Shown piece after piece: positions 2,941 through 60,348 of a DNA stretch of 64,000 nucleotides (position 1 is its first letter; the number at the start of each line of letters is the position of its first letter). Position numbers and translations under genes: made by a program. The DNA is from Escherichia phage EdH4, in sequence record MK327930.1. The stretch is one strand, 5' to 3'. The notes below the pieces were generated by a model. That model did no database searches. It was given only the letters and a program-made list of their open reading frames with translations, and was not told the origin of the DNA.

Positions 2941-3031
2941 TGTGTCTATCCTCTTTCTGCTACGTTTAAGGCGGCAGTAACCGCCTGTTTATGATTTATT
3001 GGTTAATTTTCAGGTATCGCTATAAATTAAA

Positions 3032-3256
3032 CTATGCTGTACGCTCAACTATAACAACGGTTTGAGGGATCTCACCTTCCACCACTATCAAGGCCTTTTT
3101 CTGCGTGATGGATATCTTTACCCGTTGCAGCGTGGCGGTGAAGTCTTTCATTTCGTCACGTGGTGTTTTAGTGCAATGCCAGATCTCAGGCTTACCTATT
3201 TGCAAGCCGCGTAAAAATTCTGTTTTACCTGTCTTATTCGTGATCATTTGATTCAC
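3032..3256 (-). CDS. Hypothetical protein
   Basis: 74-aa ORF; AAGGTGA RBS-like upstream. Confidence 0.45.
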   Translation of the reverse strand: MNQMITNKTGKTEFLRGLQIGKPEIWHCTKTPRDEMKDFTATLQRVKISITQKKALIVVEGEIPQTVVIVERTA

Positions 3257-3257
3257 C

Positions 3258-3461
3258 TTAACCGATACCGTGGGAAGATAGGATCATGTTAGCCATAGTT
3301 GCAACCACTCCAACCGATAATGCCAGGCCAACTACTACAACCGTGAAAATTTTCTCTAACATGATTCTACCCTCATTAATGGGCGTTGCCTTATTGCCCC
3401 GCCCTACGAAATACAGTCTATCAAGTAATAAACTATTGTCAAGATTTATTTTACTTCCCAA
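3258..3461 (-). CDS. Hypothetical small membrane protein (start uncertain)
   Basis: 67-aa ORF with hydrophobic C-terminal segment VVVVGLALSVGVVATMANMIL. Confidence 0.35.
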   Translation of the reverse strand: MGSKINLDNSLLLDRLYFVGRGNKATPINEGRIMLEKIFTVVVVGLALSVGVVATMANMILSSHGIG

Positions 3462-3582
3462 ACGGAAAATTCACTACCTGGCGGAATCATCTTTTTAATC
3501 TTGTTTGCTGCTGCTACCAGATCCACGGCTTGTACTGTAATAATATAACCAATTGTCGAGGCTGTTGCGTTGAAAGTTTTCA
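3446..3582 (-). CDS. Hypothetical 45-aa protein (below ORF-track cutoff)
   Basis: ATG preceded by a GAGG RBS and the ggcgggaa..ttcccgc hairpin; MKTFNATASTIGYIITVQ... Confidence 0.35.
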
Positions 3583-3663
3583 TTAAATTACCCTCATTAA
3601 TGGCGGGAAGTATTCCCGCGCTATGTAGTACACTTTACCAGATTGTTGACTGTTGTCAAACTA

Positions 3664-3846
3664 TTTTAACGATAATCATCATATGCTTTATTGACCTGGC
3701 GAATATAACATTCAAAAGCTAGATCAATAGATTTATATTCACGGATATATTCACCATAGGAAACCACATACATTTCTATAGCTTCCTCATATGCGAGGAG
3801 AATAGAATCTAAGCCTACGATCTCAGTCTTTGCAATAATAGCCATG
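3664..3846 (-). CDS. Hypothetical 59-aa protein (below ORF-track cutoff)
   Basis: ATG at about 3846 with an agagga RBS; MAIIAKTEIVGLDSILLAYEEAIEMYVVSYGEYIREYK... Confidence 0.45.
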
Positions 3847-3920
3847 ATTTTTATCCTCTTTGTGGTTGGTGGGGCTTGTTGCCCCCTTTGATTTATATTC
3901 TACAGTCTTATAAGGTCATG

Positions 3921-4154
3921 TCAACTGTTTTCAAAAAATTTTTCTGCTGTAATATTTTTCCCGGTAGGGTTCGCTACTTTCAAAATTTTATCATGCACCG
4001 GACGCCCGAAAGAATAAGATCCGTATACAGTAAACCAATAATTGCCGTCAGGCTGTACTATTACCGCCGCATATGGTACGCCTTTTTCGTTTTTGCTGAC
4101 AAAATAGATCACATTGCCATTAATAGCCTCGGCGCGTTTAATTTGTTCCATCAT
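3921..4154 (-). CDS. Hypothetical protein
   Basis: 77-aa ORF. Confidence 0.55.
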   Translation of the reverse strand: MMEQIKRAEAINGNVIYFVSKNEKGVPYAAVIVQPDGNYWFTVYGSYSFGRPVHDKILKVANPTGKNITAEKFFENS

Positions 4155-4217
4155 GATGATTCACCTATCTTTATTTTTTCATAGTTTCAGGAGGGGGCCT
4201 TTTCGGCCCCGCCAGGT

Positions 4218-4502
4218 TTATTTATTGATAGCGTGCAGCGGGAAAGGTACGCCAGGTTGATAGATAACCTTTACAACCTCATCAGGACAAAAGAAATTGC
4301 AGAACTCACCGCAATAGGCCTCATCCTCTTTCAACTCTTCATCAACATACTCAAAAAAGTAGTCGATGCTTGGATAATCTTGCCCTGGGTTATAGTCAAC
4401 CATTGTCAGGACTAGTTCAAGATCGTTGCGTAGGATATGCATACCCGCTTTTAAGTATTTTGCTTCCATTTCCACTACATCGCCAACGGTAACAATAGCC
4501 AT
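4218..4502 (-). CDS. Hypothetical acidic protein
   Basis: 94-aa ORF; promoter-like TTGCAT-N16-GATAAT upstream at about 4560-4590. Confidence 0.55.
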   Translation of the reverse strand: MAIVTVGDVVEMEAKYLKAGMHILRNDLELVLTMVDYNPGQDYPSIDYFFEYVDEELKEDEAYCGEFCNFFCPDEVVKVIYQPGVPFPLHAINK

Positions 4503-4708
4503 GGTTTTAACTCCTATCTATCCGGTTAATGATTGGAGGCCTCACCGCCCCCCGACACCCTTTATTATCCATATTGTAGGACTTGATGCAAGTACTTCTT
4601 TAAAAATTTTTTAAGCGCCTTGGGGGCCGCTGTAACGCCAAAATAATAAAGGCTATGCAACCGCATAGCCTTTATGTGATTATATCGCTGCAGGCCCTGC
4701 CAGGGGCC

Positions 4709-5059
4709 TTATTTTGCATTCTTTCCTATATTGCCGCTACGGTACCAGCGTTTACGGTGAAAATGGTAATAATCACCATCGGCATTAAACATCAGATGAT
4801 TTTCAATAACCAGCTTACGAAGGTGGGCCGGATCTTGTTCCATTCTTGCCAGATTCTGGCGGCTGTTACGTAAGCGGATAAATTCTATATTCAGGCCGTT
4901 GATTGCAGCATGGATGTCAAAGTAACCACCTTTGAGACGTTCACGCATGGCGTTAAGCTCAACACAATATACAGATTTCTCACAAATCAAGGTATTAGCC
5001 AGGGCGCGGACCTGGGCAAGGGGGTTAAGCTCATTAAGGTAATATAGTTTTACTTTCAT
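4709..5059 (-). CDS. Hypothetical protein
   Basis: 116-aa ORF. Confidence 0.6.
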   Translation of the reverse strand: MKVKLYYLNELNPLAQVRALANTLICEKSVYCVELNAMRERLKGGYFDIHAAINGLNIEFIRLRNSRQNLARMEQDPAHLRKLVIENHLMFNADGDYYHFHRKRWYRSGNIGKNAK

Positions 5060-5076
5060 AAAATCACCTGCTGAAA

Positions 5077-5376
5077 TTAGTTTGAGAAAACATCGTTCAC
5101 AATAGCGATCACAATGCCGCCCACCTTGTCACGGTCAACAATGCACAAATCACCATAGATCATGTGGTAGTCTGGATGATCTTTGACGGAATAGTCGATA
5201 AGTGTTTTCTTGTCATCCAGCTTACTAACTTCCATTCTCATAACGATATGAGAATCATCAAAGGCATTATTCCGAAAAGTCATAACCTGACCGCCAGGGC
5301 ACCCGGTGATTTCCACCTCCACGCCGTCTACGATCTGACCATCAAAGAAATAAAGATTATTAGCCTGGATAAACAT
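5077..5376 (-). CDS. Hypothetical protein (start trimmed to ATG with AAAGGAG RBS)
   Basis: Track start at 5397 is a GTG; the ATG at 5376 has a canonical RBS. Confidence 0.55.
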   Translation of the reverse strand: MFIQANNLYFFDGQIVDGVEVEITGCPGGQVMTFRNNAFDDSHIVMRMEVSKLDDKKTLIDYSVKDHPDYHMIYGDLCIVDRDKVGGIVIAIVNDVFSN

Positions 5377-5418
5377 GATCATTACTCCTTTTTGCACTGA
5401 TTATTTTAACAGGGTTTA

Positions 5419-5464
5419 AATTTACTTTATTGATGGCCCTAGAGTCAAGGCCATCTAAAAATAA
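5419..5464 (-). promoter_or_regulatory. Conserved 45-bp intergenic element, copy 1 (promoter TTGACT-N18-TAAATT with palindrome over the -35)
   Basis: tttactttattgatggccctagagtcaaggccatctaaaaataa; palindrome GATGGCC-N10-GGCCATC; near-identical to copies at 9135 and 9756. Confidence 0.5.
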
Positions 5465-5467
5465 ATT

Positions 5468-5668
5468 TTACAGGCCTACAATCTCTTTAATTCGTTTTAC
5501 TGCTGCCTCAGCGCCTTGAGGGTAAAAATTATGGTAACCAATCACGCGAGTGATACTAATCGCCGTTTGATGATCTTCATAATCACCTTTAAAGATTTCT
5601 TGACCGTCAATCAGCACGGCAATTTTTTCTTCTTTTTTGAAGTTAATAACGCGGATATTGTTGCTCAT
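5468..5668 (-). CDS. Hypothetical protein
   Basis: 66-aa ORF. Confidence 0.5.
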   Translation of the reverse strand: MSNNIRVINFKKEEKIAVLIDGQEIFKGDYEDHQTAISITRVIGYHNFYPQGAEAAVKRIKEIVGL

Positions 5669-5727
5669 TTTGTTTCTCCTTTTGGAACTTTGTCTATGCG
5701 GTGGGGAGTGTCTCCCCGTTGATTGTT

Positions 5728-5755
5728 ATTATCCATATTCTGGATCGGATTGCAA
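5728..5755 (-). promoter_or_regulatory. Sigma70-like promoter TTGCAA-N16-GATAAT followed by 5' hairpin
   Basis: Hairpin ggggagtgtctcccc at about 5703-5717 lies between the -10 and the RBS of CDS 5468..5668. Confidence 0.45.
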
Positions 5756-5912
5756 CACTCAGGGAGAAAAAAATTTGAAAAGTTAGGCCCCCATGATCGG
5801 GGGCCGTTCTTAGTTACTTACAGCGATAAAGTACATCCCTACGCCTAGCAATATTTCAAGGGCGATAATCTCAAGCCATACCATAACGCGGCGCACCTTA
5901 TCGGTGCATGGC

Positions 5913-6095
5913 TTATCCTTGGTTGTCATCGTCTCCCCCTTTCCTTCTGGTAGTAGTGACGCGATCTACAATGGCCCCCAGGAGTCCTATCACGACACAC
6001 ACCACAAGAAAAATTATCTCCGCTGTTGTTCGATCCATTGTTATAAAATTCCTCAAGATCAGGCCTGAAAATAAAGCGTTCGTTATTGAATCCAT
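5913..6095 (-). CDS. Hypothetical small membrane protein (frame choice uncertain)
   Basis: Hydrophobic stretch IIFLVVCVVIGLLGAIV; the overlapping 87-aa ORF in another frame is low-complexity and less plausible. Confidence 0.35.
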   Translation of the reverse strand: MDSITNALFSGLILRNFITMDRTTAEIIFLVVCVVIGLLGAIVDRVTTTRRKGGDDDNQG

Positions 6096-6148
6096 CCCGC
6101 CAGGCGGCTGGCTTCAAATCTTCACTAAAGGGGTTAATTAACGTGGCA

Positions 6149-6520
6149 TTATTTAAACGGCTGGTCCACATATTTTCTATTCCTCTCAAATAGGCGATCC
6201 GCCTCAGTTAAACAAATCTCATGGGCGTGATCTCTGGTTTTAGCTTCATCGAAAACCTGTTGTGCAAGGCTGCAACGTAGGGAGACTGGAAGATCACTAT
6301 AATAGGCGTTGACAAACGTTTGAGCGTCGTACAGGTCTGAAAATACTTTACCCTTTCTATTATTCCCCTTGTCAACAATTGCAAGGATAACCAATACAAT
6401 AGTTGCAACCACCCCCAGGAAAATAGATATAATAAACCATAAAAAGGCGGATCTTCCCATCTTGCCAGCGATCCAGGCGTTAAACAAGGCAACCAATACA
6501 GCCAAAATAATAAATTCCAT
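6149..6520 (-). CDS. Membrane protein (two predicted TM helices)
   Basis: Start trimmed to the ATG with an AAGAGG RBS; MEFIILAVLVALFNAWIAG...FLWFIISIFLGVVATIVLVILAIV. Confidence 0.6.
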   Translation of the reverse strand: MEFIILAVLVALFNAWIAGKMGRSAFLWFIISIFLGVVATIVLVILAIVDKGNNRKGKVFSDLYDAQTFVNAYYSDLPVSLRCSLAQQVFDEAKTRDHAHEICLTEADRLFERNRKYVDQPFK

Positions 6521-6584
6521 TCTATGTACCTCTTTTACAGTTCTGATTAACAATAAGGCGGCAAATATGCCGCCTGCTACCTGA

Positions 6585-6965
6585 TTAAAAATTATCGCCG
6601 TAAATCTTTCCGCTTTCTACCCATACCACCACGCGAGGCATACTATCCCACACGTCTTGTTTTAGATTGAGCGCGTGCAATTCTTCGGTGGTGCTCATAC
6701 CGGGCACGGGCTGATTGTATACTGCAAAACGACCGCCTGCATAATCATAGGCCAGGGTTAAATCACACTGGATCATCTTTTTGATCATGGCATTAAGCAT
6801 GGCGTTAGCCGCATATTGATCACGTTTTAAAGGCAACTCTTTGATTAGTTTGCGATAGTTTTCGATATGGTCGCACACTGTTTCACGAGGAAGATCTTTC
6901 ATATCTTCACGGAATGTAACCAGGTTAAACATAACGGTGTCAATAGCCTTGGTAGTGTTTTTCAT
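6585..6965 (-). CDS. Hypothetical protein
   Basis: 126-aa ORF; promoter and hairpin upstream. Confidence 0.6.
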   Translation of the reverse strand: MKNTTKAIDTVMFNLVTFREDMKDLPRETVCDHIENYRKLIKELPLKRDQYAANAMLNAMIKKMIQCDLTLAYDYAGGRFAVYNQPVPGMSTTEELHALNLKQDVWDSMPRVVVWVESGKIYGDNF

Positions 6966-7019
6966 GATGTTATCCTCTTTGTTTTGTGTTGGGGCAAACG
7001 TCTTGCCCCCTTGAGTTTT

Positions 7020-7047
7020 AATATAGCAGGTTTTTAGGTTATTGCAA
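7020..7047 (-). promoter_or_regulatory. Sigma70-like promoter TTGCAA-N16-TATATT followed by 5' hairpin
   Basis: Hairpin ggggcaaacgtcttgcccc at about 6991-7010 downstream of the -10. Confidence 0.45.
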
Positions 7048-7055
7048 CACTTTAT

Positions 7056-7679
7056 TTATGAAAAAGTCATCTCACCATATTCATCGACATCAAACCGCCA
7101 ATCATTGGCCTCGATAAGGCCGATCAGGTTTTCTGCGGTTAACTGTTCTAGATAGGCCTCCTCCAGGTCTACGTAAACCTTGCGGGATAGCTCCCGTACC
7201 GTCTCGGTGATCAGTTCTTCCAGGTCTTCCACTTTGTTTTCTTGTTTGGCGGTCAGATCTAGCCAAGTGGTATCAATGTACCCGCTTACAGTGTTTTCAT
7301 GGCTGTAATGGCTGTACTTGTCGCGTTCAACACTGGCTGATAACTCGCCATCGTGCATTGTGCCGAACAAGTGACGAATTGATCGGAACTTGGTCAGGGC
7401 CTTTACTTTACGCAAAAATTTTTCTAAATCCACGTTTTCAGCACTGATTGACGCGCCGTCACCCTGGCACCAAAAGCCTGACCAATGTACTTCGGTATCT
7501 TCAAGGCCATACTCTGGAAAAACATATTCTTTATAGTATTCAATTACACTTTCTGCAAAAAAGTTATCCCCGCTGTGTTCTTCTCTTTCGCGGACCATTT
7601 CAACGGCTTTTTCTTTTTGTTCGTCGGTCAGCACGTCGAAAGATAAATTGTAACCTGCGGTAATGTTAACGGTGGTCAT
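7056..7679 (-). CDS. Hypothetical acidic protein
   Basis: 207-aa ORF with AGGAG RBS; motif HWSGFWCQGDGASI; no family confidently recognised. Confidence 0.65.
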   Translation of the reverse strand: MTTVNITAGYNLSFDVLTDEQKEKAVEMVREREEHSGDNFFAESVIEYYKEYVFPEYGLEDTEVHWSGFWCQGDGASISAENVDLEKFLRKVKALTKFRSIRHLFGTMHDGELSASVERDKYSHYSHENTVSGYIDTTWLDLTAKQENKVEDLEELITETVRELSRKVYVDLEEAYLEQLTAENLIGLIEANDWRFDVDEYGEMTFS

Positions 7680-7736
7680 GATATTTTCTCCTATTTTCTT
7701 TGTTAGTGGCGGGAAGTTTTCCCGCCTGTGTGTTTA

Positions 7737-7764
7737 AGTATACTTATTGAGGCTTACTTGTCAA
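7737..7764 (-). promoter_or_regulatory. Sigma70-like promoter TTGACA-N16-TATACT followed by 5' hairpin
   Basis: Hairpin ggcgggaagttttcccgcc at 7708-7726 sits 10 nt after the -10. Confidence 0.55.
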
Positions 7765-8014
7765 CACTATTTTTTAAATTATTGTGGCGCAAAATGTTTA
7801 AAATCTCCTCAACGTCATCAACACGGCGGCAATTTTTAAACGCTACCAATTGCCCCATGATTTTAATCACTGGGCGGCCTTGCCAGTGCCCCTGAAGAAA
7901 GCGCGCCCTGACTTTATCGGTGGAACTATCACGCCACCAAATAGCCTTGTTGTTGCAGTAGTAAAAATTATTCAGGATAACATCAACTTTATCAAAATTT
8001 TTTAATTTACGCAT
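7754..8014 (-). CDS. Hypothetical protein
   Basis: 86-aa ORF. Confidence 0.6.
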   Translation of the reverse strand: MRKLKNFDKVDVILNNFYYCNNKAIWWRDSSTDKVRARFLQGHWQGRPVIKIMGQLVAFKNCRRVDDVEEILNILRHNNLKNSVDK

Positions 8015-8046
8015 GGCGTTTACTCCTTTCTCTCTTTGATGTGGTT

Positions 8047-8074
8047 AGTATAGCTAACCTGTTGACGATGTCAA
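8047..8074 (-). promoter_or_regulatory. Sigma70-like promoter TTGACA-N16-TATACT
   Basis: Upstream of CDS 7754..8014, followed by an aaggag RBS. Confidence 0.5.
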
Positions 8075-8231
8075 TGATATTTTTAACGCCATGAAACGGC
8101 CCTGGGCGATGTTTTCAGGTTAAAGGGGCGATTGCATAGGTGGGGGCCTTTTTGGCGCTTACAGGGCCAACCAGGGGCGCTATTCGTAGGATAGAAATAA
8201 AAAGCCCCGCACAATGGCGGGGCGCTGGTTG

Positions 8232-8429
8232 TTATTTGTCTTTATGGCGGTATCGTTCTGCCTGTCGTTCACGTTCCAAAAGTAGGCCGGGCAATTTACG
8301 ATCATAATGATTACGCCAGATCTTCCCAAACCTTTTTGGCTTATTCAGTTTATTGTTACGCTGGCGGCGTTCTGGCAGCTCTTCGGAATCATGAGGGCGC
8401 TTTACAATTTTCTCGAAATTAATTTTCAT
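8232..8429 (-). CDS. Small basic protein (possible nucleic-acid binding)
   Basis: Start trimmed to MKINFEK; rich in R/K (PERRQRNNKLNKPKRFGKIWRNHYDRK). Confidence 0.5.
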   Translation of the reverse strand: MKINFEKIVKRPHDSEELPERRQRNNKLNKPKRFGKIWRNHYDRKLPGLLLERERQAERYRHKDK

Positions 8430-8772
8430 ATATTCCCCCCTTGCTAACTTCAATATTGGCCTGAATAGCCCGGATACGGCGCTTTATAACTTCCTGATCT
8501 GTGTGGTCGTATCCCCAAAAGTCTACAATTTTTGCGCCACCCGCCTCCAGGCGGTATAGTGTTTCCTGCATTTTGTAAGCCGGGATCGGTCGCGGTGTTA
8601 CTTGGTCACCTTCTTTATTTTTATACTTTATAATATAATCTTCGTTATCGTTGAATGCCCAAAATGGATATTCTGCAAGGGCGGTACTTCCTCTTTCCTT
8701 TTTATCCTGGATCTTATTTACAATTAAAGCCGTAGCAATAGCGCCAATAATAAAACTTGCCCCGCTGATCAT
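8419..8772 (-). CDS. Membrane-anchored protein (N-terminal TM helix)
   Basis: MISGASFIIGAIATALIVNKIQ then a soluble domain. Confidence 0.6.
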   Translation of the reverse strand: MISGASFIIGAIATALIVNKIQDKKERGSTALAEYPFWAFNDNEDYIIKYKNKEGDQVTPRPIPAYKMQETLYRLEAGGAKIVDFWGYDHTDQEVIKRRIRAIQANIEVSKGGIYEN

Positions 8773-8846
8773 GTACTTTCTCCTTTCATGGTGTTAATAA
8801 ATTATCTTTATAGATGGCCCTGCAACCAGGACCACCGAAAAAATAA

Positions 8847-9092
8847 CTATTTCACAATGCCTACAAAACAGATCCCGCCTTCACCTATATAAGCAATATC
8901 GGTCACTTTATAACTTGTCAAGATCTGCTTATTTAGTTCATTAATAAAATCGGTCATTGCGTTGGTGTAGTTGTCTTCCGTGTCTAAGGCATAATCCCAG
9001 GTGTACACCTTTTTACGTCCGAAGCCTTTTACCATGATACGGGCGCTTTTGGTGTTGGTAGGGGCATAATATTTGGTGATTAGTGCTGCCAT
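8847..9092 (-). CDS. Hypothetical protein
   Basis: 81-aa ORF. Confidence 0.6.
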   Translation of the reverse strand: MAALITKYYAPTNTKSARIMVKGFGRKKVYTWDYALDTEDNYTNAMTDFINELNKQILTSYKVTDIAYIGEGGICFVGIVK

Positions 9093-9134
9093 GGTTTTAA
9101 CTCCTATGCATTAGTTCAGTGTTAACAGTATAAA

Positions 9135-9179
9135 GTTTACTTTATTGATGGCCCTGGTGTCAAGGCCATCTAAAAATAA
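9135..9179 (-). promoter_or_regulatory. Conserved 45-bp intergenic element, copy 2 (promoter TTGACA-N18-TAAACT with palindrome over the -35)
   Basis: gtttactttattgatggccctggtgtcaaggccatctaaaaataa; identical to the copy at 9756. Confidence 0.5.
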
Positions 9180-9181
9180 GC

Positions 9182-9523
9182 TTACTCGTTTTCTTCCAGC
9201 TCCGCAAGCTCTTCTTTTGCTTCTTCTAACTCTGTCTGTAATTCCTGGTATTCTTCATCGTCCTCAATATCCAGGCTGTCGATGTAGTCGCTAAATCCGC
9301 AGCGGTAAGCGATAGGATCTAGCTCCTTGAGGATACGCGACGGAAGAAAAGAAATGTTTCCGATCATAATTTCGCCGTAGATCTCGTCTAACCATTCATC
9401 ATAGTTTTCGTCGTACTTGTCCTCGTCGATTTCAAAGTTATCGATCTTATTCTCAAGGTCTGCGATCTGTTTTTTCAGTTCAGCGATCTGCATAGCTTTT
9501 TCTGAGGCGGTCATAGTAGTCAT
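9182..9523 (-). CDS. Acidic coiled-coil protein
   Basis: 113-aa ORF; heptad-like QIAELKKQIADLENKIDNFEID and an acidic C-terminus. Confidence 0.6.
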   Translation of the reverse strand: MTTMTASEKAMQIAELKKQIADLENKIDNFEIDEDKYDENYDEWLDEIYGEIMIGNISFLPSRILKELDPIAYRCGFSDYIDSLDIEDDEEYQELQTELEEAKEELAELEENE

Positions 9524-9574
9524 GGTGTTTTTCTCCTTTTGTGTGTTCTGGGAAGTTTTCCCGTTTATGTGCTT

Positions 9575-9602
9575 ATTATATCGATTTAAGTTAGCTTGTC
9601 AA
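9575..9602 (-). promoter_or_regulatory. Sigma70 consensus promoter TTGACA-N16-TATAAT followed by 5' hairpin
   Basis: Hairpin gggaagttttccc at about 9550-9563. Confidence 0.55.
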
Positions 9603-9722
9603 TTAAAAGTTTAAGAAAAATTTTGCGACACCGTTGGCGCTACCCATCAACATTTGCGCCAGGATGTACCCAATGATGCAAACGATGATGGTTACCTTTG
9701 TGTGCTGGCGTGTAGTGCTCAT
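9603..9722 (-). CDS. Small hydrophobic protein, 39 aa (below ORF-track cutoff)
   Basis: Strong RBS aaaggagg then ATG; MSTTRQHTKVTIIVCIIGYILAQMLMGSANGVAKFFLNF. Confidence 0.45.
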   Translation of the reverse strand: MSTTRQHTKVTIIVCIIGYILAQMLMGSANGVAKFFLNF

Positions 9723-9755
9723 CTTTAAGCCTCCTTTTCCGCTCAACTGTGGTTA

Positions 9756-9800
9756 GTTTACTTTATTGATGGCCCTGGTGTCAAGGCCATCTAAAAATAA
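9756..9800 (-). promoter_or_regulatory. Conserved 45-bp intergenic element, copy 3
   Basis: Identical to copy 2; upstream of the small CDS 9603..9722. Confidence 0.5.
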
Positions 9801-9802
9801 AC

Positions 9803-10198
9803 TCAATAAGTTTTTAGTACTTTCCCGTCCAATCTGTCAAGCTGGATCTCGATAGCTGCAGAAAACCTATTGTAAACCACATCGCCCAGGGAGTCCAGCC
9901 AATCTATGACGTTATATACCTGCTCTTTATTCTTGCAAGTCCGGATCCGTTTCATTACGTAAGACGGATCAATATTAGCGCTCTCGTTGTTGTGGTCCTG
10001 CGCCTGGCCTGCTGCGCTAGTTATAGATTTTACAACCACCTGAAAGGGCTTTAAGGTGCCTTTTGCGTTCATCTCACGCGCTTTTGCGGCGCGGTTGTTA
10101 TATGTTACACAACGGCGGCAAATGTTGACCAAATGCATATCAATAATTTTTTCATCGTTTGCCAGTTCGTTCATGATGCGGCGTACGTTCTTATTCAT
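9803..10198 (-). CDS. Hypothetical protein
   Basis: 131-aa ORF. Confidence 0.6.
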   Translation of the reverse strand: MNKNVRRIMNELANDEKIIDMHLVNICRRCVTYNNRAAKAREMNAKGTLKPFQVVVKSITSAAGQAQDHNNESANIDPSYVMKRIRTCKNKEQVYNVIDWLDSLGDVVYNRFSAAIEIQLDRLDGKVLKTY

Positions 10199-10246
10199 GA
10201 TCTTTTTCCTTTGTGCTGGCGGGAAACATTCCCGCCTTTTGTGTCT

Positions 10247-10274
10247 AGTTTACTTAAATTTTGCAGCGTGTCAA
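10247..10274 (-). promoter_or_regulatory. Sigma70-like promoter TTGACA-N16-TAAACT followed by 5' hairpin
   Basis: Hairpin ggcgggaaacattcccgcc at about 10219-10237. Confidence 0.55.
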
Positions 10275-10280
10275 TGATTT

Positions 10281-10679
10281 TTATTCGTGGGCGCATGTTA
10301 CAATGTGTTTTTTATAGCCCAGGTGGTCAGCAAGTGCCGACAAAAACTCTTCTTCGTAGATCCAGCCGTCGGCAGTGATCCCCATAGCATTTAATGCGCT
10401 CTCAAGTGCTGCGTTAGCTTTATCGTAACCGTGACCGCTCGCCTTGCCGCCAGTATAACCGTACTTATTGTTCTTGTTGTCGTGAATCCAAAACACGCAG
10501 TAGTGAGTGTTCCCGCTGGCGGCGGCATAATACCGGATCTCAGCTACTTCGTGCAAATTATTGTCATCGTCCAGGCCCACCAGATTATAAGCCTTGTAAA
10601 ATCCACGATCACGGCGGCAGTTCTTGACATCAGAAAAAGAAAAGTCTGCATTATCAAAATTAAAGGTAGTGGTTTTCAT
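10281..10679 (-). CDS. Hypothetical protein
   Basis: 132-aa ORF. Confidence 0.6.
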   Translation of the reverse strand: MKTTTFNFDNADFSFSDVKNCRRDRGFYKAYNLVGLDDDNNLHEVAEIRYYAAASGNTHYCVFWIHDNKNNKYGYTGGKASGHGYDKANAALESALNAMGITADGWIYEEEFLSALADHLGYKKHIVTCAHE

Positions 10680-10711
10680 GATTTTATCCTCTTAGTGTCT
10701 TTTGTGCTTTT

Positions 10712-10740
10712 AGTGTATTTGGTGTCGGACTGTATGTCAA
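10712..10740 (-). promoter_or_regulatory. Sigma70-like promoter TTGACA-N17-TACACT
   Basis: Upstream of CDS 10281..10679. Confidence 0.45.
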
Positions 10741-10743
10741 TAC

Positions 10744-11019
10744 TTATTTTTTATTAAACCAGTGGTTGATCTGACCTTTTGTCAGGGCGCAACGATTAAG
10801 CTGTTGCAGGGTATAGCTATGACCGCGACGAAATTTATAAAGGCCTTGCCCGTTGTTGATGGTTACATCCACCCGGCAAATCACTTGATTGGTGACCACC
10901 TGGCGAGTGTTGCGACGTACTTTGATCCCGTATGCGTTCATAAATTTATCCTCTTTACTGGTTAGTGCGGTGTTGTTCACCTTGTAGGGTAATAATACCA
11001 TGATTAACCTTGTTGTCAA
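10744..11019 (-). CDS. Hypothetical protein
   Basis: 91-aa ORF. Confidence 0.55.
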   Translation of the reverse strand: MTTRLIMVLLPYKVNNTALTSKEDKFMNAYGIKVRRNTRQVVTNQVICRVDVTINNGQGLYKFRRGHSYTLQQLNRCALTKGQINHWFNKK

Positions 11020-11022
11020 CGA

Positions 11023-11196
11023 CTATTTTAAATTATTTTTATGATAGAATCCACCTGCCGCCCCCCGCCAGGTTAACCACCATTTTTCGTACTCTTCTTT
11101 ATGTTCCAACGCTCCCGCCATAGCCTTTTCAACCAGGGCGATAGCCTCAGAGTCATTAATAGCTACATTTTCCAGGGGGATCATATTACCTTTCAT
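11023..11196 (-). CDS. Hypothetical 57-aa protein (below ORF-track cutoff)
   Basis: RBS gaggagg then ATG; MKGNMIPLENVAINDSEAIALVEKAMAGALEHKEEYEKWW... Confidence 0.45.
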   Translation of the reverse strand: MKGNMIPLENVAINDSEAIALVEKAMAGALEHKEEYEKWWLTWRGAAGGFYHKNNLK

Positions 11197-11354
11197 TTTT
11201 GTACCTCCTCTTCAATTGTTACCTATCCTGTAGCATAGGCCCACCAGGTTTACAAGCCTTCATTCTCCCCTACCTGGTCAGTTAGGTCCTGCCAGGCTGG
11301 CCCCGCCAGGTTGCAGCGGTTAGCGCATCAGGTTAGAAAAATTTTTTGAAAAGT

Positions 11355-11383
11355 GTTGACAGCGGCCCCGCCAGGTGGCACAA
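11355..11383 (+). promoter_or_regulatory. Plus-strand sigma70-like promoter TTGACA-N17-CACAAT pointing into a non-coding region
   Basis: No plus-strand ORF downstream; the GC-rich element begins about 18 nt after the -10. Confidence 0.45.
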
Positions 11384-11400
11384 TATACCTATCGAAAGGA

Positions 11401-11437
11401 CGGCAGGCACCGGTGACGGGGGAGACAACCACCGGGG
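11401..11437 (+). repeat. GC-rich repeated element, copy A
   Basis: cggcaggcaccggtgacgggggagacaaccaccgggg; related to copies at 11555 and 2212. Confidence 0.6.
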
Positions 11438-11500
11438 ATGGGCGCTGCATAAAATGAGAACGGTTATCATTATCATTTAAAAATTTATGCAAAAAAATCC

Positions 11501-11531
11501 TTGCTTTCTTTGTCCTGTGTGATACTATAAT
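11501..11531 (+). promoter_or_regulatory. Plus-strand promoter TTGCTT-N16-TACTATAAT
   Basis: Transcribes toward the AT-rich iteron region; no ORF downstream. Confidence 0.45.
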
Positions 11532-11554
11532 AACAAGCCGGGGCAACAGGGGCC

Positions 11555-11577
11555 GGGAGACAATCACCGGGCCTGCC
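11555..11577 (+). repeat. GC-rich repeated element, copy B
   Basis: gggagacaatcaccgggcctgcc; exact reverse complement of 2212-2234. Confidence 0.7.
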
Positions 11578-11699
11578 CGTTATTCTGCAAACGAGAATGA
11601 TTATCATTCAAAATTCTAAATGAGAACTCCTAGCATTTAATAAATTTAATTAGCACGCTAATTACCCTCCGTAACAATTTACTATAAAATAGTATCCAC

Positions 11700-12190
11700 T
11701 AAAATATTCCCATATAGAAATTTTAAAAATCCATTTCTGAAAACGAAAAATCGATTTCGTCCCCAAAAATTTCAGGTTGAGAGCCGGAACGATTTCCAGA
11801 AAATCCGATTCAGAAAACGAAAAACAGATCGAGTACTGAGAAATTTATCGAGAAAAATTTTCAGAAAATCCAAGCCCTGAAATGAAAAGTAGATCGAGTA
11901 CCTGGAAAGCTGCACCGCAACTTCAAGATAGCGGTTAGATTGTTACCATAGAAGGTCAAGGGTAAGTGGAGGAAGTTCTAGTAGAGAGAGGTTAGCATGT
12001 GTGGGAAATCTATAATGGTGGCCTGGAATATGGTGCAAACGATAGGATGAGTTATTCAGCTTGTCGCGCCTACTCTGAAAAATCCATTTTAGTTTTCGAT
12101 CCATTTTCTGATTTTCTAAGAATTTTAAAATATCCAGCCCGGTGAAATATCAAAAGGAGGAAATCCATTTTAGAAATCCCCCTTATACTT
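11700..12190. repeat. AT-rich non-coding region with iteron-like direct repeats (candidate replication origin)
   Basis: Three copies of a unit agaaaatcc-N-cagaaaacgaaaa-N-agatcgagtac at about 11720-11905, plus aaaatccatttt copies at about 12075-12180; no ORF on either strand. Confidence 0.5.
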
Positions 12191-12213
12191 GATATGCCAG
12201 GAATTTTCAAGTA

Positions 12214-15712: not shown

Positions 15713-15740
15713 AAAAATGCCCCACCCTTTCGGGCAGGGC
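15713..15740 (-). terminator. Rho-independent terminator after the SSB-like gene
   Basis: Hairpin gccccaccctttcgggcagggc plus T-run on minus; the same 22-nt hairpin recurs at 25850-25871. Confidence 0.65.
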
Positions 15741-25844: not shown

Positions 25845-25871
25845 AAAAAGCCCCACCCTTTCGGGCAGGGC
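25845..25871 (-). terminator. Rho-independent terminator (same hairpin as 15719-15740)
   Basis: gccccaccctttcgggcagggc plus T-run on minus. Confidence 0.65.
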
Positions 25872-33877: not shown

Positions 33878-33891
33878 AATGACTCCAAATA

Positions 33892-33914
33892 GAAAATCCC
33901 CGCCGAAGCGGGGG
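33892..33914 (-). terminator. Rho-independent terminator
   Basis: Hairpin ccccgccgaagcggggg plus T-run on minus; the same hairpin type recurs at 60333. Confidence 0.6.
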
Positions 33915-60252: not shown

Positions 60253-60322
60253 GTCACTCCTCCGGTATGAAAATCTCTACAAGGTATTTTACCAAATTTT
60301 GTAACAATAGTCAATCTGAGCA

Positions 60323-60348
60323 TAAAAATAAACCCCGCCGAAGCGGGG
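60323..60348 (-). terminator. Rho-independent terminator after the J-like gene
   Basis: Hairpin ccccgccgaagcgggg with T-run on minus. Confidence 0.6.

What the first reader, a model, noticed from the sequence alone, without database searches (positions are those of the whole stretch)
5419..9800. Conserved 45-bp intergenic element in three copies: promoter with a palindrome over the -35
Near-identical elements at 5421-5464, 9135-9179 and 9756-9800 (gtttactttattgatggccctggtgtcaaggccatctaaaaataa) contain, on the minus strand, TTGACA-N18-TAAACT with the -35 hexamer inside the loop of a perfect 7-bp palindrome (GATGGCC-N10-GGCCATC). The flanking runs do not fit a terminator on either strand. A palindrome over the -35 suggests a dimeric repressor or activator co-regulating at least three early genes.
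Basis: seen in the sequence. Interest (0 to 1): 0.55.

Follow-up and report, generated by a model that had tools for sequence, protein, structure and literature searches.

The report
Promoter-plus-RNA-hairpin cassette repeated between phage early genes
The repeat is real and lies in the early-gene region of an rV5-like E. coli phage, but it is best read as an intergenic cassette of a long RNA hairpin with a host-type promoter inside it, of the kind known from T4-like phages, whose copies also recombine to delete the genes between them.

Summary
The window is an rV5-like phage (genus Vequintavirus). The element has four copies per genome, not three; the fourth, diverged copy is at 8796-8851. 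All copies lie on the gene-sense (minus) strand, starting at a stop codon and ending 27-42 nt before the next start codon.

The 7-bp palindrome is the core of a longer two-part hairpin: a 10-bp A/U lower stem, a small internal loop, a 10-bp upper stem and a tetraloop. In 31 distinct copies from a dozen phages, 97% of pair positions stay paired on the sense strand against 86% on the antisense strand. The upper stem changes only through G-U wobbles. The fourth copy keeps the hairpin but has no -35.

This points to an RNA structure in read-through transcripts, not a protein operator. TTGAC-N19-TAAAYT is invariant in copies 1-3, so a moderate sigma-70 promoter there is plausible but untested.

Natural isolates have lost the gene cassettes between copies and carry chimeric elements at the junction. 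The closest known kind is the PeSL (promoter-early stem-loop) of RB49-type phages. I file it as a new member of that kind in another phage lineage. What the hairpin does (RNase III-type processing or 3'-end protection, versus attenuation) is inferred, not shown.

The parts
9751..9806 (-). Copy 3 of the element. Lower stem 9803-9794 with 9764-9755; upper stem-loop 9791-9768; candidate -35 9784-9779; candidate -10 9760-9755. It follows the TGA stop (9805-9803) of the 131-aa gene and precedes the ATG at 9722 of a 39-aa gene.
   Evidence: fold -25.1 kcal/mol, z -5.95; 77.6 bits.
9130..9185 (-). Copy 2. Lower stem 9182-9173 with 9143-9134; upper stem-loop 9170-9147; candidate -35 9163-9158; candidate -10 9139-9134. 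It follows the TAA stop (9184-9182) of the 113-aa gene and precedes the ATG at 9092 of the 81-aa gene.
   Evidence: -22.3 kcal/mol, z -5.2; 77.2 bits. In a 201-nt context the upper stem persists but the lower stem is replaced by other pairings.
8796..8851 (-). Same two-part hairpin (upper stem-loop 8836-8813; lower stem 8848-8839 with 8809-8800). The upper stem is GGUGGUCCUG/CAGGGCCAUC with two G-U pairs. CTGGTT replaces TTGACA, so there is no usable -35. It follows the TAG stop (8849-8847) of the 81-aa gene and precedes the ATG at 8772 of the 117-aa gene.
   Evidence: sense -24.4 kcal/mol, z -4.5; antisense -10.4, z -1.1; 70.3 bits; full hairpin kept in a 201-nt context.
5415..5470 (-). Copy 1. 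Upper stem-loop 5455-5432; lower stem 5467-5458 with 5428-5419; candidate -35 TTGACT 5448-5443; candidate -10 TAAATT 5424-5419. It follows the TAA stop (5470-5468) of the 66-aa gene and precedes the ATG at 5376 of the 99-aa gene.
   Evidence: -21.5 kcal/mol, z -5.3; 77.3 bits.
9186..9750 (-). Cassette between copies 3 and 2: the 39-aa gene (9603-9722), a consensus promoter TTGACA-16-TATAAT (9602-9575; P192 in the rV5 annotation), a 5' hairpin and the 113-aa gene (9182-9523). It is absent from phages magaca and ECP26 and from one IMG/VR contig. Those carry one chimeric element with the upstream flank of copy 3 and the downstream flank of copy 2.
   Evidence: The cassette is present in 114 of about 120 related records.
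8852..9129 (-). Cassette between copies 2 and 4: the 81-aa gene (8847-9092). It is absent from phage 241Ecol014PP. The single element there has the 5' part of copy 2 and the 3' part and downstream flank of copy 4, so the crossover lies inside the element.
   Evidence: The cassette is present in 116 records.

Best explanation
This is a composite intergenic cassette of the PeSL type (promoter-early stem-loop) in the early, ORFan-rich region of an rV5-like phage. About 50 bp do three things. (1) In RNA: transcripts that read through from the upstream gene fold the element, right after the stop codon, into a two-part hairpin of about two helical turns (10-bp A/U lower stem, 2x3-nt internal loop, 10-bp G/C-rich upper stem, tetraloop). 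With no U-tract behind it, I infer that it works as a processing and 3'-end-protecting signal. [quoted passage not shown] I do not think it is an intrinsic terminator. (2) In DNA: in copies 1-3 the same sequence carries a sigma-70-type promoter. The T-rich 5' arm acts as an UP-like tract, TTGAC lies at the top of the upper stem, and TAAAYT lies in the 3' arm. This promoter would restart transcription for the downstream gene on a transcript that lacks the hairpin. Copy 4 has only the hairpin. (3) As repeated identical DNA, the copies are substrates for homologous recombination that deletes or shuffles the small genes of unknown function between them. Shown here: the copies, their placement, the strand-specific conservation of pairing, and the recombinant genomes. 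Inferred: promoter activity and what the hairpin does in RNA.
For: Identity and placement: four copies, all on the sense strand, each running from a stop codon to 27-42 nt before the next start. Hairpin: -21 to -25 kcal/mol, z about -5, for all four copies on the sense strand; for copy 4 only -10.4 kcal/mol (z -1.1) on the antisense strand. Pair conservation in 31 distinct copies: 97.3% of cells paired on the sense strand (upper helix 99.7%) against 85.8% (87.1%) on the antisense strand. Five upper-stem pairs vary on one side only, and 25 of 26 variant cells stay paired through G-U. Four lower-stem pairs have changes on both sides. Slid controls give 35-57% paired. Copy 4 is more variable in sequence (mean pairwise identity 90%) than its downstream flank (97%) yet keeps the pairing. 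Copies 1-3 are 96-99% identical while their flanks are 86-93%. Promoter: 10/12, 10/12 and 9/12 consensus matches. TTGAC and the T, A and final T of the -10 are invariant in copies 1-3, while the sixth -35 base and the next loop base take 4 and 2 states. The chimeric element of 241Ecol014PP reads TTGACA-17-GATAAT. Against a terminator role: canonical terminators with U-tracts occur in the same region (8223-8204, 5805-5786, 6575-6556), and the element has none. Recombination: two independent deletions bounded by copies, each with a chimeric element. Loop variants are shared by copies 2 and 3 within a genome but differ between genomes, which indicates gene conversion. Published parallels: PeSLs run from a stop codon in an AT-rich tract through a sigma-70 promoter to the SD and ATG. 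They carry a stem-loop with G-T pairs that may overlap the -35 or -10, and recombination between them excises ORFans (PMC2839356). E. coli RNase III substrates typically span two helical turns, and internal loops restrict cleavage to one strand, leaving a protective 3' hairpin (PMC1540722). All flanking genes have unknown function.
Against: No transcript data exist for this phage group in the library searched, so promoter activity and RNA processing are untested. The 18-nt spacer and the TAAACT -10 are suboptimal; the strong promoters nearby use 16. The rV5 authors did not list these sites among their 33 promoters. The covariation rests on few independent events: about four informative transitions in the upper stem and two or three compensated pairs in the lower stem. 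The sequences are closely related and exchange by conversion. G-T pairs also form in single-stranded DNA. The A/U lower stem is outcompeted by other pairings when copy 2 is folded in a 201-nt context. RNase III antideterminant positions were not evaluated. In the PeSL paper the stem-loop tested behaved as a terminator, a role I consider less likely here only because the U-tract is missing.
Confidence: 0.55

Rival explanations
1. RNA hairpin only. The element is a structured RNA signal in polycistronic early transcripts (processing, stability, or binding of an RNA-binding protein). The TTGACA-N18-TAAACT match is inactive or incidental, and the downstream genes are expressed by read-through from the strong 16-spacer promoters upstream.
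For: Copy 4 keeps the hairpin without a -35. Pairing is conserved on one strand only. The spacer of 18 differs from the 16 of every strong promoter in the region. The sites are not annotated as promoters in rV5.
Against: In copies 1-3 the loop bases A and C that complete TTGAC never vary, while the two other loop bases do. In copy 4 three of the four loop positions vary. Copies 1-3 are far more conserved in sequence than pairing alone requires, although gene conversion could also explain that.
Confidence: 0.2
2. The element is a sigma-70 promoter whose -35 is covered by a palindromic operator (GATGGCC-N10-GGCCATC) bound by a dimeric phage or host regulator that co-regulates three early genes.
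For: A perfect 7-bp inverted repeat is centred on the -35 and is invariant in copies 1-3 of all the phages examined.
Against: The inverted repeat is only the core of a 20-bp interrupted hairpin that also includes the flanking A/T runs. Changes keep pairing through G-U on the sense strand and would be A-C mismatches on the other strand. In copy 4 one half-site differs at two positions while complementarity in RNA is kept and the promoter is gone. No regulator was identified.
Confidence: 0.1
3. Terminator or attenuator, as proposed for PeSL stem-loops. The hairpin stops or reduces transcription arriving from upstream, and the embedded promoter restarts it, insulating each small cassette.
For: The hairpin sits directly after a stop codon. 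One PeSL stem-loop cloned before lacZ reduced expression as strongly as rrnB T1 (PMC2839356).
Against: The hairpin is followed by AAUAAAG..., and after the full hairpin by UUAUACUG, AACCACAG, UAAACCCU or UAUUAACA, so there is no U-tract. The consensus scan does not call it. The same region uses canonical terminators with U-tracts. Copy 4 has no promoter to restart transcription of the 117-aa gene.
Confidence: 0.1
4. A repeat without regulatory function. It is a selfish or merely duplicated intergenic sequence kept alike by gene conversion, and its only effect is to promote rearrangements.
For: Deletions bounded by copies and shared loop variants within genomes show ongoing recombination and conversion.
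Against: Copy 4 has diverged to about 70% identity yet keeps every pair of the upper stem, and compensated pairs in the lower stem. All copies keep the same strand and the same position relative to stop and start codons.
Confidence: 0.05

Closest known systems
PeSL (promoter-early stem-loop) cassettes of the T4-like phages RB49/phi1, and of PST and nt-1 (Arbiol et al. 2010, PMC2839356; Comeau et al. 2014, PMC4122927)
   Same: Both are intergenic repeats in a region of small genes of unknown function. Both start at the upstream stop codon in an AT-rich tract and contain a sigma-70-like -35/-10. Both carry a stable stem-loop with G-T (G-U) pairs that may overlap the -35 or the -10, and both end at the SD and start codon of the next gene. 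Recombination between copies removes the flanked genes and leaves a chimeric element.
   Different: The host lineage is Vequintavirinae, not T4-like. Here one sub-family of four nearly identical copies has a two-part hairpin of about 20 bp that spans from the UP-like tract to the -10. The PeSL stem-loops are shorter and rich in G and C runs. The promoter has an 18-nt spacer and a non-consensus -10, whereas PeSL promoters match the consensus. One copy has no promoter. Promoter and terminator activity were measured for PeSLs but not here.
RNase III processing sites between phage T7 genes (R0.3, R1.1 and others) and E. coli RNase III substrates in general (Pertzev and Nicholson 2006, PMC1540722; the T7 details are from my own knowledge)
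   Same: Both are intergenic hairpins of about two helical turns interrupted by a small asymmetric internal loop, lying between cistrons of early polycistronic RNA. Such substrates are cut on one strand and leave a 3' hairpin that protects the upstream message.
   Different: No sequence similarity was tested or expected. Cleavage has not been shown. The proximal-box and distal-box antideterminants were not evaluated. The lower stem is pure A/U and marginal in a long context. T7 sites do not overlap a host-type promoter.
Intrinsic (Rho-independent) terminators
   Same: A G/C-rich hairpin immediately after a stop codon.
   Different: There is no U-tract 3' of the stem on either strand. The T-run lies 5' of the stem and pairs with the A-rich 3' flank.

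Membership tests
PeSL (promoter-early stem-loop) cassette | Intergenic; begins at the stop codon of the upstream gene within an AT-rich tract and ends at the SD and start codon of the downstream gene | tested here: met
   All four copies. The stop codons overlap the base of the lower stem, and AGGAG-type ribosome-binding sites and ATG follow 27-42 nt after the element.
PeSL (promoter-early stem-loop) cassette | Contains a sigma-70-like -35 and -10 | tested here: inconclusive
   Copies 2 and 3: TTGACA-18-TAAACT (10/12). Copy 1: TTGACT-18-TAAATT (9/12). Copy 4: no -35. These are consensus matches only; activity was not measurable here.
PeSL (promoter-early stem-loop) cassette | Stable stem-loop, often with G-T pairs, placed within or next to the promoter (five subclasses, including overlap with the -35 or -10) | tested here: met
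   Hairpin of -21 to -25 kcal/mol, z about -5, spanning the -35 and -10, with conserved U-G pairs.
PeSL (promoter-early stem-loop) cassette | Repeated and concentrated in a plastic region of small genes without known function | tested here: met
   Four copies within 4.4 kb and none elsewhere in about 137 kb. Flanking proteins have no Pfam family at its cut-off and only PHROGs of unknown function.
PeSL (promoter-early stem-loop) cassette | Recombination between copies creates insertions or deletions of the flanked genes, with chimeric elements | tested here: met
   Copy 3 x copy 2 deletion in magaca, ECP26 and an IMG/VR contig; copy 2 x copy 4 deletion in 241Ecol014PP.
PeSL (promoter-early stem-loop) cassette | The stem-loop acts as a transcription terminator or attenuator, and the promoter is strong in vivo | not testable with these tools
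   Needs reporter or transcript mapping. The lack of a U-tract argues against efficient intrinsic termination.
PeSL (promoter-early stem-loop) cassette | Described so far in T4-like myoviruses | tested here: not met
   The window is 99.7% identical to Vequintavirus phages. This is a matter of host range of the concept, not of mechanism. The searched library holds PeSL papers only on T4-like phages and cyanophages.
E. coli RNase III processing site (T7 R-site type) | Double-helical length of about two turns, possibly by coaxial stacking | tested here: met
   10 + 10 bp separated by a 2x3-nt internal loop. Criterion from PMC1540722.
E. coli RNase III processing site (T7 R-site type) | Internal loop or bulge that restricts cleavage to one strand | tested here: met
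   An asymmetric internal loop (UA/AAU, UC/UAU) is present in every copy, and its bases vary.
E. coli RNase III processing site (T7 R-site type) | No inhibitory base pairs in the proximal and distal boxes | not tested
   The cleavage site is unknown, so the boxes cannot be placed.
E. coli RNase III processing site (T7 R-site type) | rnc-dependent cleavage in vivo or in vitro | not testable with these tools
   Needs experiment.
Intrinsic terminator | U-rich tract directly 3' of a G/C-rich hairpin | tested here: not met
   The 3' flank is AAUAAAG (sense) or UAAAAAU (antisense). The element is not called by the terminator scan and is not among the annotated terminators of Alma or HdK5.
Promoter with a palindromic operator for a dimeric regulator | Two half-sites conserved as sequence (not merely as complementarity) wherever the element is kept | tested here: not met
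   In copy 4 the half-sites are GGTGGTC and GGCCATC. The two changes are transitions that keep G-U pairing in sense RNA.
Promoter with a palindromic operator for a dimeric regulator | A cognate DNA-binding protein | not tested
   No candidate was examined; this needs pull-down or EMSA.
Rfam families | Match to a curated covariance model | tested here: not met
   No relevant hit in 3000-12000 at E <= 1.

The most novel reading that the evidence does not exclude
One 50-bp sequence is read twice. As DNA it is an early promoter whose UP-like tract and -10 box are the two arms of a helix. As RNA on read-through transcripts, those same arms plus the G/C stem over the -35 form an RNase III-type substrate that cuts and caps the upstream message. 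Ending one message and starting the next would then be encoded in the same bases, and the unit would move genes in and out of the phage genome by recombination. This would be a processing-coupled variant of the PeSL idea in a phage lineage where it has not been described.
Probability: 0.25. Interest if true: 0.55.

Novelty: new member of a known kind. Interest (0 to 1): 0.4.

Why it matters
It extends the PeSL principle from T4-like phages to the rV5-like Vequintavirus group, which is widely used in therapy and biocontrol cocktails. In that principle, small promoter and stem-loop cassettes both organise early transcription and serve as recombination points for swapping accessory genes. It also gives concrete, testable sites. 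Three candidate early promoters and four RNA hairpins are missing from all the annotations I inspected. Two cassettes are already seen to be dispensable in nature: the 81-aa gene, and the pair of 39-aa and 113-aa genes. For genome engineering, the copies are natural landing and excision points. If the hairpin proves to be an RNase III site overlapping a promoter, it would be a compact example of one sequence carrying both a DNA signal and an RNA signal.

Tried and rejected
(1) Terminator. Rejected because there is no U-tract on either strand, and the terminators annotated in Alma and HdK5 are at other positions.

(2) Known RNA family. Rfam at E <= 1 gave only a chance-level sRNA hit elsewhere.

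(3) More copies. A covariance model run without filters found none beyond the four in the window or in the rest of the Alma genome. The antisense hits at the same loci score 31-42 bits against 70-78 for the sense strand.

(4) Relatives outside the genus. A scan of IMG/VR with GGGCCATCNATAAAG (14 specified bases) returned mostly single chance matches; only three loci (L070, L122, L123) were rV5-like. tblastn with the 113-aa and 117-aa flanking proteins found either no homologues outside Vequintavirus or only distant ones in unrelated contexts. The family therefore appears genus-specific, and no deep covariation could be obtained.

(5) A first degenerate pattern was mis-spaced and found nothing. 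A fuzzy-regex scan timed out. One structure string was unbalanced. One literature query was malformed.

(6) Transcript data. Literature searches for transcriptome or promoter work on these elements in rV5-like phages found none. The rV5 paper lists 33 promoters and 20 terminators found by consensus search, and the GenBank record has none at the elements.

(7) Function of neighbouring genes. There are no Pfam families above cut-off, and all PHROGs are of unknown function.

(8) A promoter on the plus strand within the element. TTGATG and TAAAAAT are 20 nt apart, so this was rejected by inspection.

Full report
WHAT THE WINDOW IS. Bases 5000-10000 are 99.7% identical to Escherichia phage vB_Eco_Alma. 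They are 94-96% identical to many other members of the genus Vequintavirus (rV5-like myoviruses); 113 records cover at least 80% of the query. In the first 14 kb of the window all annotated genes lie on the minus strand. They are small and of unknown function. This is the early transcription unit that the rV5 paper proposes from the gene layout (PMC3606486).

THE OBSERVATION. GATGGCC-N10-GGCCATC with up to two mismatches occurs four times, against 0.2 expected. The repeat finder groups 5419-5467, 9134-9182 and 9755-9803 with a fourth, diverged copy at 8800-8848. On the minus strand the consensus scan gives TTGACA-18-TAAACT for copies 2 and 3 and TTGACT-18-TAAATT for copy 1. A covariance model built from 31 distinct copies finds exactly these four sites in the window (70-78 bits). 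It finds nothing in the other 74 kb of the Alma genome. The family is therefore four copies within 4.4 kb. By blastn it is present in about 120 phage records, all Vequintavirus or records labelled otherwise but nearly identical to them.

ANATOMY.
- Every copy is on the sense strand of the genes.
- Each begins at the stop codon of the upstream gene and ends 27-42 nt before the start codon of the next gene, which has a good ribosome-binding site.
- Folded as sense RNA, each copy forms the same two-part hairpin: ten A/U-rich pairs between the 5' T-run and the 3' AAAGUAAACU, a 2x3-nt internal loop, ten pairs GAUGGCCUUG/CAGGGCCAUC, and a tetraloop.
- The fold energies are -21.5 to -25.1 kcal/mol, with z-scores of -4.5 to -6.
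- TTG of the -35 is paired, AC(N) is in the loop, and the -10 is the end of the lower stem.
- The T-run before the stem and the A-run after it, which rule out a terminator, are the two arms of the lower stem.

WHICH STRAND, AND DNA OR RNA. Copy 4 is the informative one. Its 5' arm differs from the others at three positions (A to G, C to U, U to C). All three changes keep pairing in sense RNA through G-U or by turning U-G into C-G. It folds at -24.4 kcal/mol on the sense strand but only -10.4 (z -1.1) on the antisense strand.
- Across the 31 distinct copies, 97.3% of cells are standard pairs on the sense strand, with the upper helix at 99.7%.
- On the antisense strand the figures are 85.8% and 87.1%.
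- Five upper-stem pairs vary on one side only, and 25 of the 26 variant cells remain paired through wobble.
- Four lower-stem pairs show changes on both sides. For example, U-A becomes C-G and A-U becomes G-U between the two types of copy 4.
- Partners slid by 1-3 columns give 35-57% paired.
- Copy 4 varies more in sequence than its own downstream flank (90% against 97% mean pairwise identity) while keeping the pairs.
- Copies 1-3 are 96-99% identical, with flanks at 86-93%.

Three caveats apply. The phages are close relatives and the copies exchange sequence, so the number of independent events is small: about four informative transitions in the upper stem and two or three compensated pairs in the lower stem. 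G-T pairs also exist in single-stranded DNA. And in a 201-nt context the A/U lower stem of copy 2 is replaced by other pairings, although that of copy 4 is not. With these limits, the pattern is what a structure in the sense transcript predicts. It is not what a symmetric protein operator predicts.

THE PROMOTER.
Evidence for a promoter in copies 1-3:
- The consensus match is good.
- The distance to the downstream start is right.
- There is an A/T tract upstream.
- TTGAC and the T, A and last T of the -10 never change in 23 distinct copies, whereas the sixth -35 base (A/T/C/G) and the next base (C/T) do. In copy 4 three of the four loop positions vary.

Evidence against:
- The spacer is 18, whereas eleven strong sites in the same region have 16 or 17 (nine of them 16). 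Seven of those are followed by a G/C hairpin at the transcript start.
- The rV5 record annotates P192, P186 and other promoters but nothing at the elements.
- No transcriptome for this group was found.

I put promoter activity of copies 1-3 at roughly two in three. Copy 4 has CTGGTT in place of TTGACA and no alternative -35, so it is a hairpin without a promoter.

RECOMBINATION. In phages magaca and ECP26 and in one IMG/VR contig, the 39-aa and 113-aa genes and the promoter between copies 3 and 2 are missing. A single element remains, with the upstream flank of copy 3 and the downstream flank of copy 2. In 241Ecol014PP the 81-aa gene between copies 2 and 4 is missing. The remaining element is copy 2 up to GGGCCATCAATAAAG and copy 4 from there on. 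The two cassettes are present in 114 and 116 of about 120 records. Copies 2 and 3 carry the same loop variant within a genome (ACAC in the window, HdK5 and 241Ecol014PP; ACTC in FV3 and phiWec193) although the variant differs between genomes. That indicates gene conversion.

WHAT THE HAIRPIN DOES. A transcript started at the element's own promoter would not contain the hairpin. Only transcripts arriving from upstream do. The same region contains canonical terminators with U-tracts, so the phage has terminators where it needs them, and this hairpin lacks the defining tract. [quoted passage not shown] Such loops limit cleavage to one strand and leave a 3' hairpin that protects the upstream RNA (PMC1540722). 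From my own knowledge, the intergenic sites of T7 early RNA have this form. I therefore favour processing and 3'-end protection over attenuation, but this step is inference from shape alone.

COMPARISON WITH WHAT IS KNOWN. The PeSLs of RB49 and phi1 are described as follows. The stop codon lies in an AT-rich tract. A sigma-70 promoter follows. A stem-loop with G-T pairs lies upstream of, between, over or after the -35 and -10 boxes. The SD and ATG come last. PeSLs are concentrated among ORFans, and recombination between them excises the flanked gene and leaves a chimeric element (PMC2839356; PMC4122927). Five of the features listed in the membership test are met here. The promoter feature is inconclusive and the stem-loop's terminator or attenuator function could not be tested. 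The one feature not met is that the phage is not T4-like. The rV5 record notes that several genes of this early region resemble RB49 proteins, so the two lineages share part of this gene pool. I found no paper describing PeSL-like elements in rV5-like phages.

VERDICT. The operator reading is not supported. The best description is a PeSL-type cassette whose conserved core is an RNA hairpin and whose copies drive gain and loss of gene cassettes. It is a new member of a known kind and of moderate interest.

Noticed in passing
window minus strand: 10236-10218, 7726-7708, 9563-9549, about 3612-3594; also 3856-3885, 3370-3395 and 2100-2130 after other promoters: A second hairpin family (GGCGGGAA-N3/4-TTCCCGCC and variants) lies 10-15 nt after the -10 of the strong TTGACA-16-TAnnnT promoters, that is, at the very 5' end of the predicted transcripts. 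Seven of eleven strong promoters in 1-14 kb have such a hairpin. This matches another PeSL subclass (stem-loop just after the -10) and could act as a 5' stabiliser.
   Followed up: partly
window 11200-12200, repeats at 11726-11772, 11800-11846 and 11865-11911: A stretch poor in ORFs holds three dispersed 47-nt direct repeats (AAAATCC...GAAAACGAAAA...) spaced 65-74 nt apart, plus a short tandem repeat at 11841-11868. It may correspond to the 'non-coding' box of the rV5 map. Its function is unknown; an origin or iterons were not examined.
   Followed up: no
window 15714-15740 and 25845-25871; 33886-33913 and 60321-60348: Two pairs of nearly identical G/C-rich hairpin sequences (AAAAAGCCCCACCCTTTCGGGCAGGGC; CCCCGCCGAAGCGGGG) are reused at distant sites. 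They look like shared terminator modules.
   Followed up: no
database records MG0656xx ('Campylobacter phage C12, C14, A112b ...'): Seventeen records labelled as Campylobacter phages are up to 99.7% identical to E. coli rV5-like phages over this region. The host labels look doubtful.
   Followed up: no
L003 (rV5, NC_011041) features at locus 76-1829: The rV5 annotation notes that several early-region proteins (gp200, gp201, gp204/Tk.4, gp205) resemble hypothetical proteins of phage RB49, the phage in which PeSLs were defined. This suggests a shared accessory-gene pool.
   Followed up: no
L005 (241Ecol014PP) 6012-6057: The chimeric copy 2/4 element created by the deletion reads TTGACA-17-GATAAT. 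That is a better sigma-70 match than either parent, so recombination between copies can retune the promoter in front of the 117-aa gene.
   Followed up: partly
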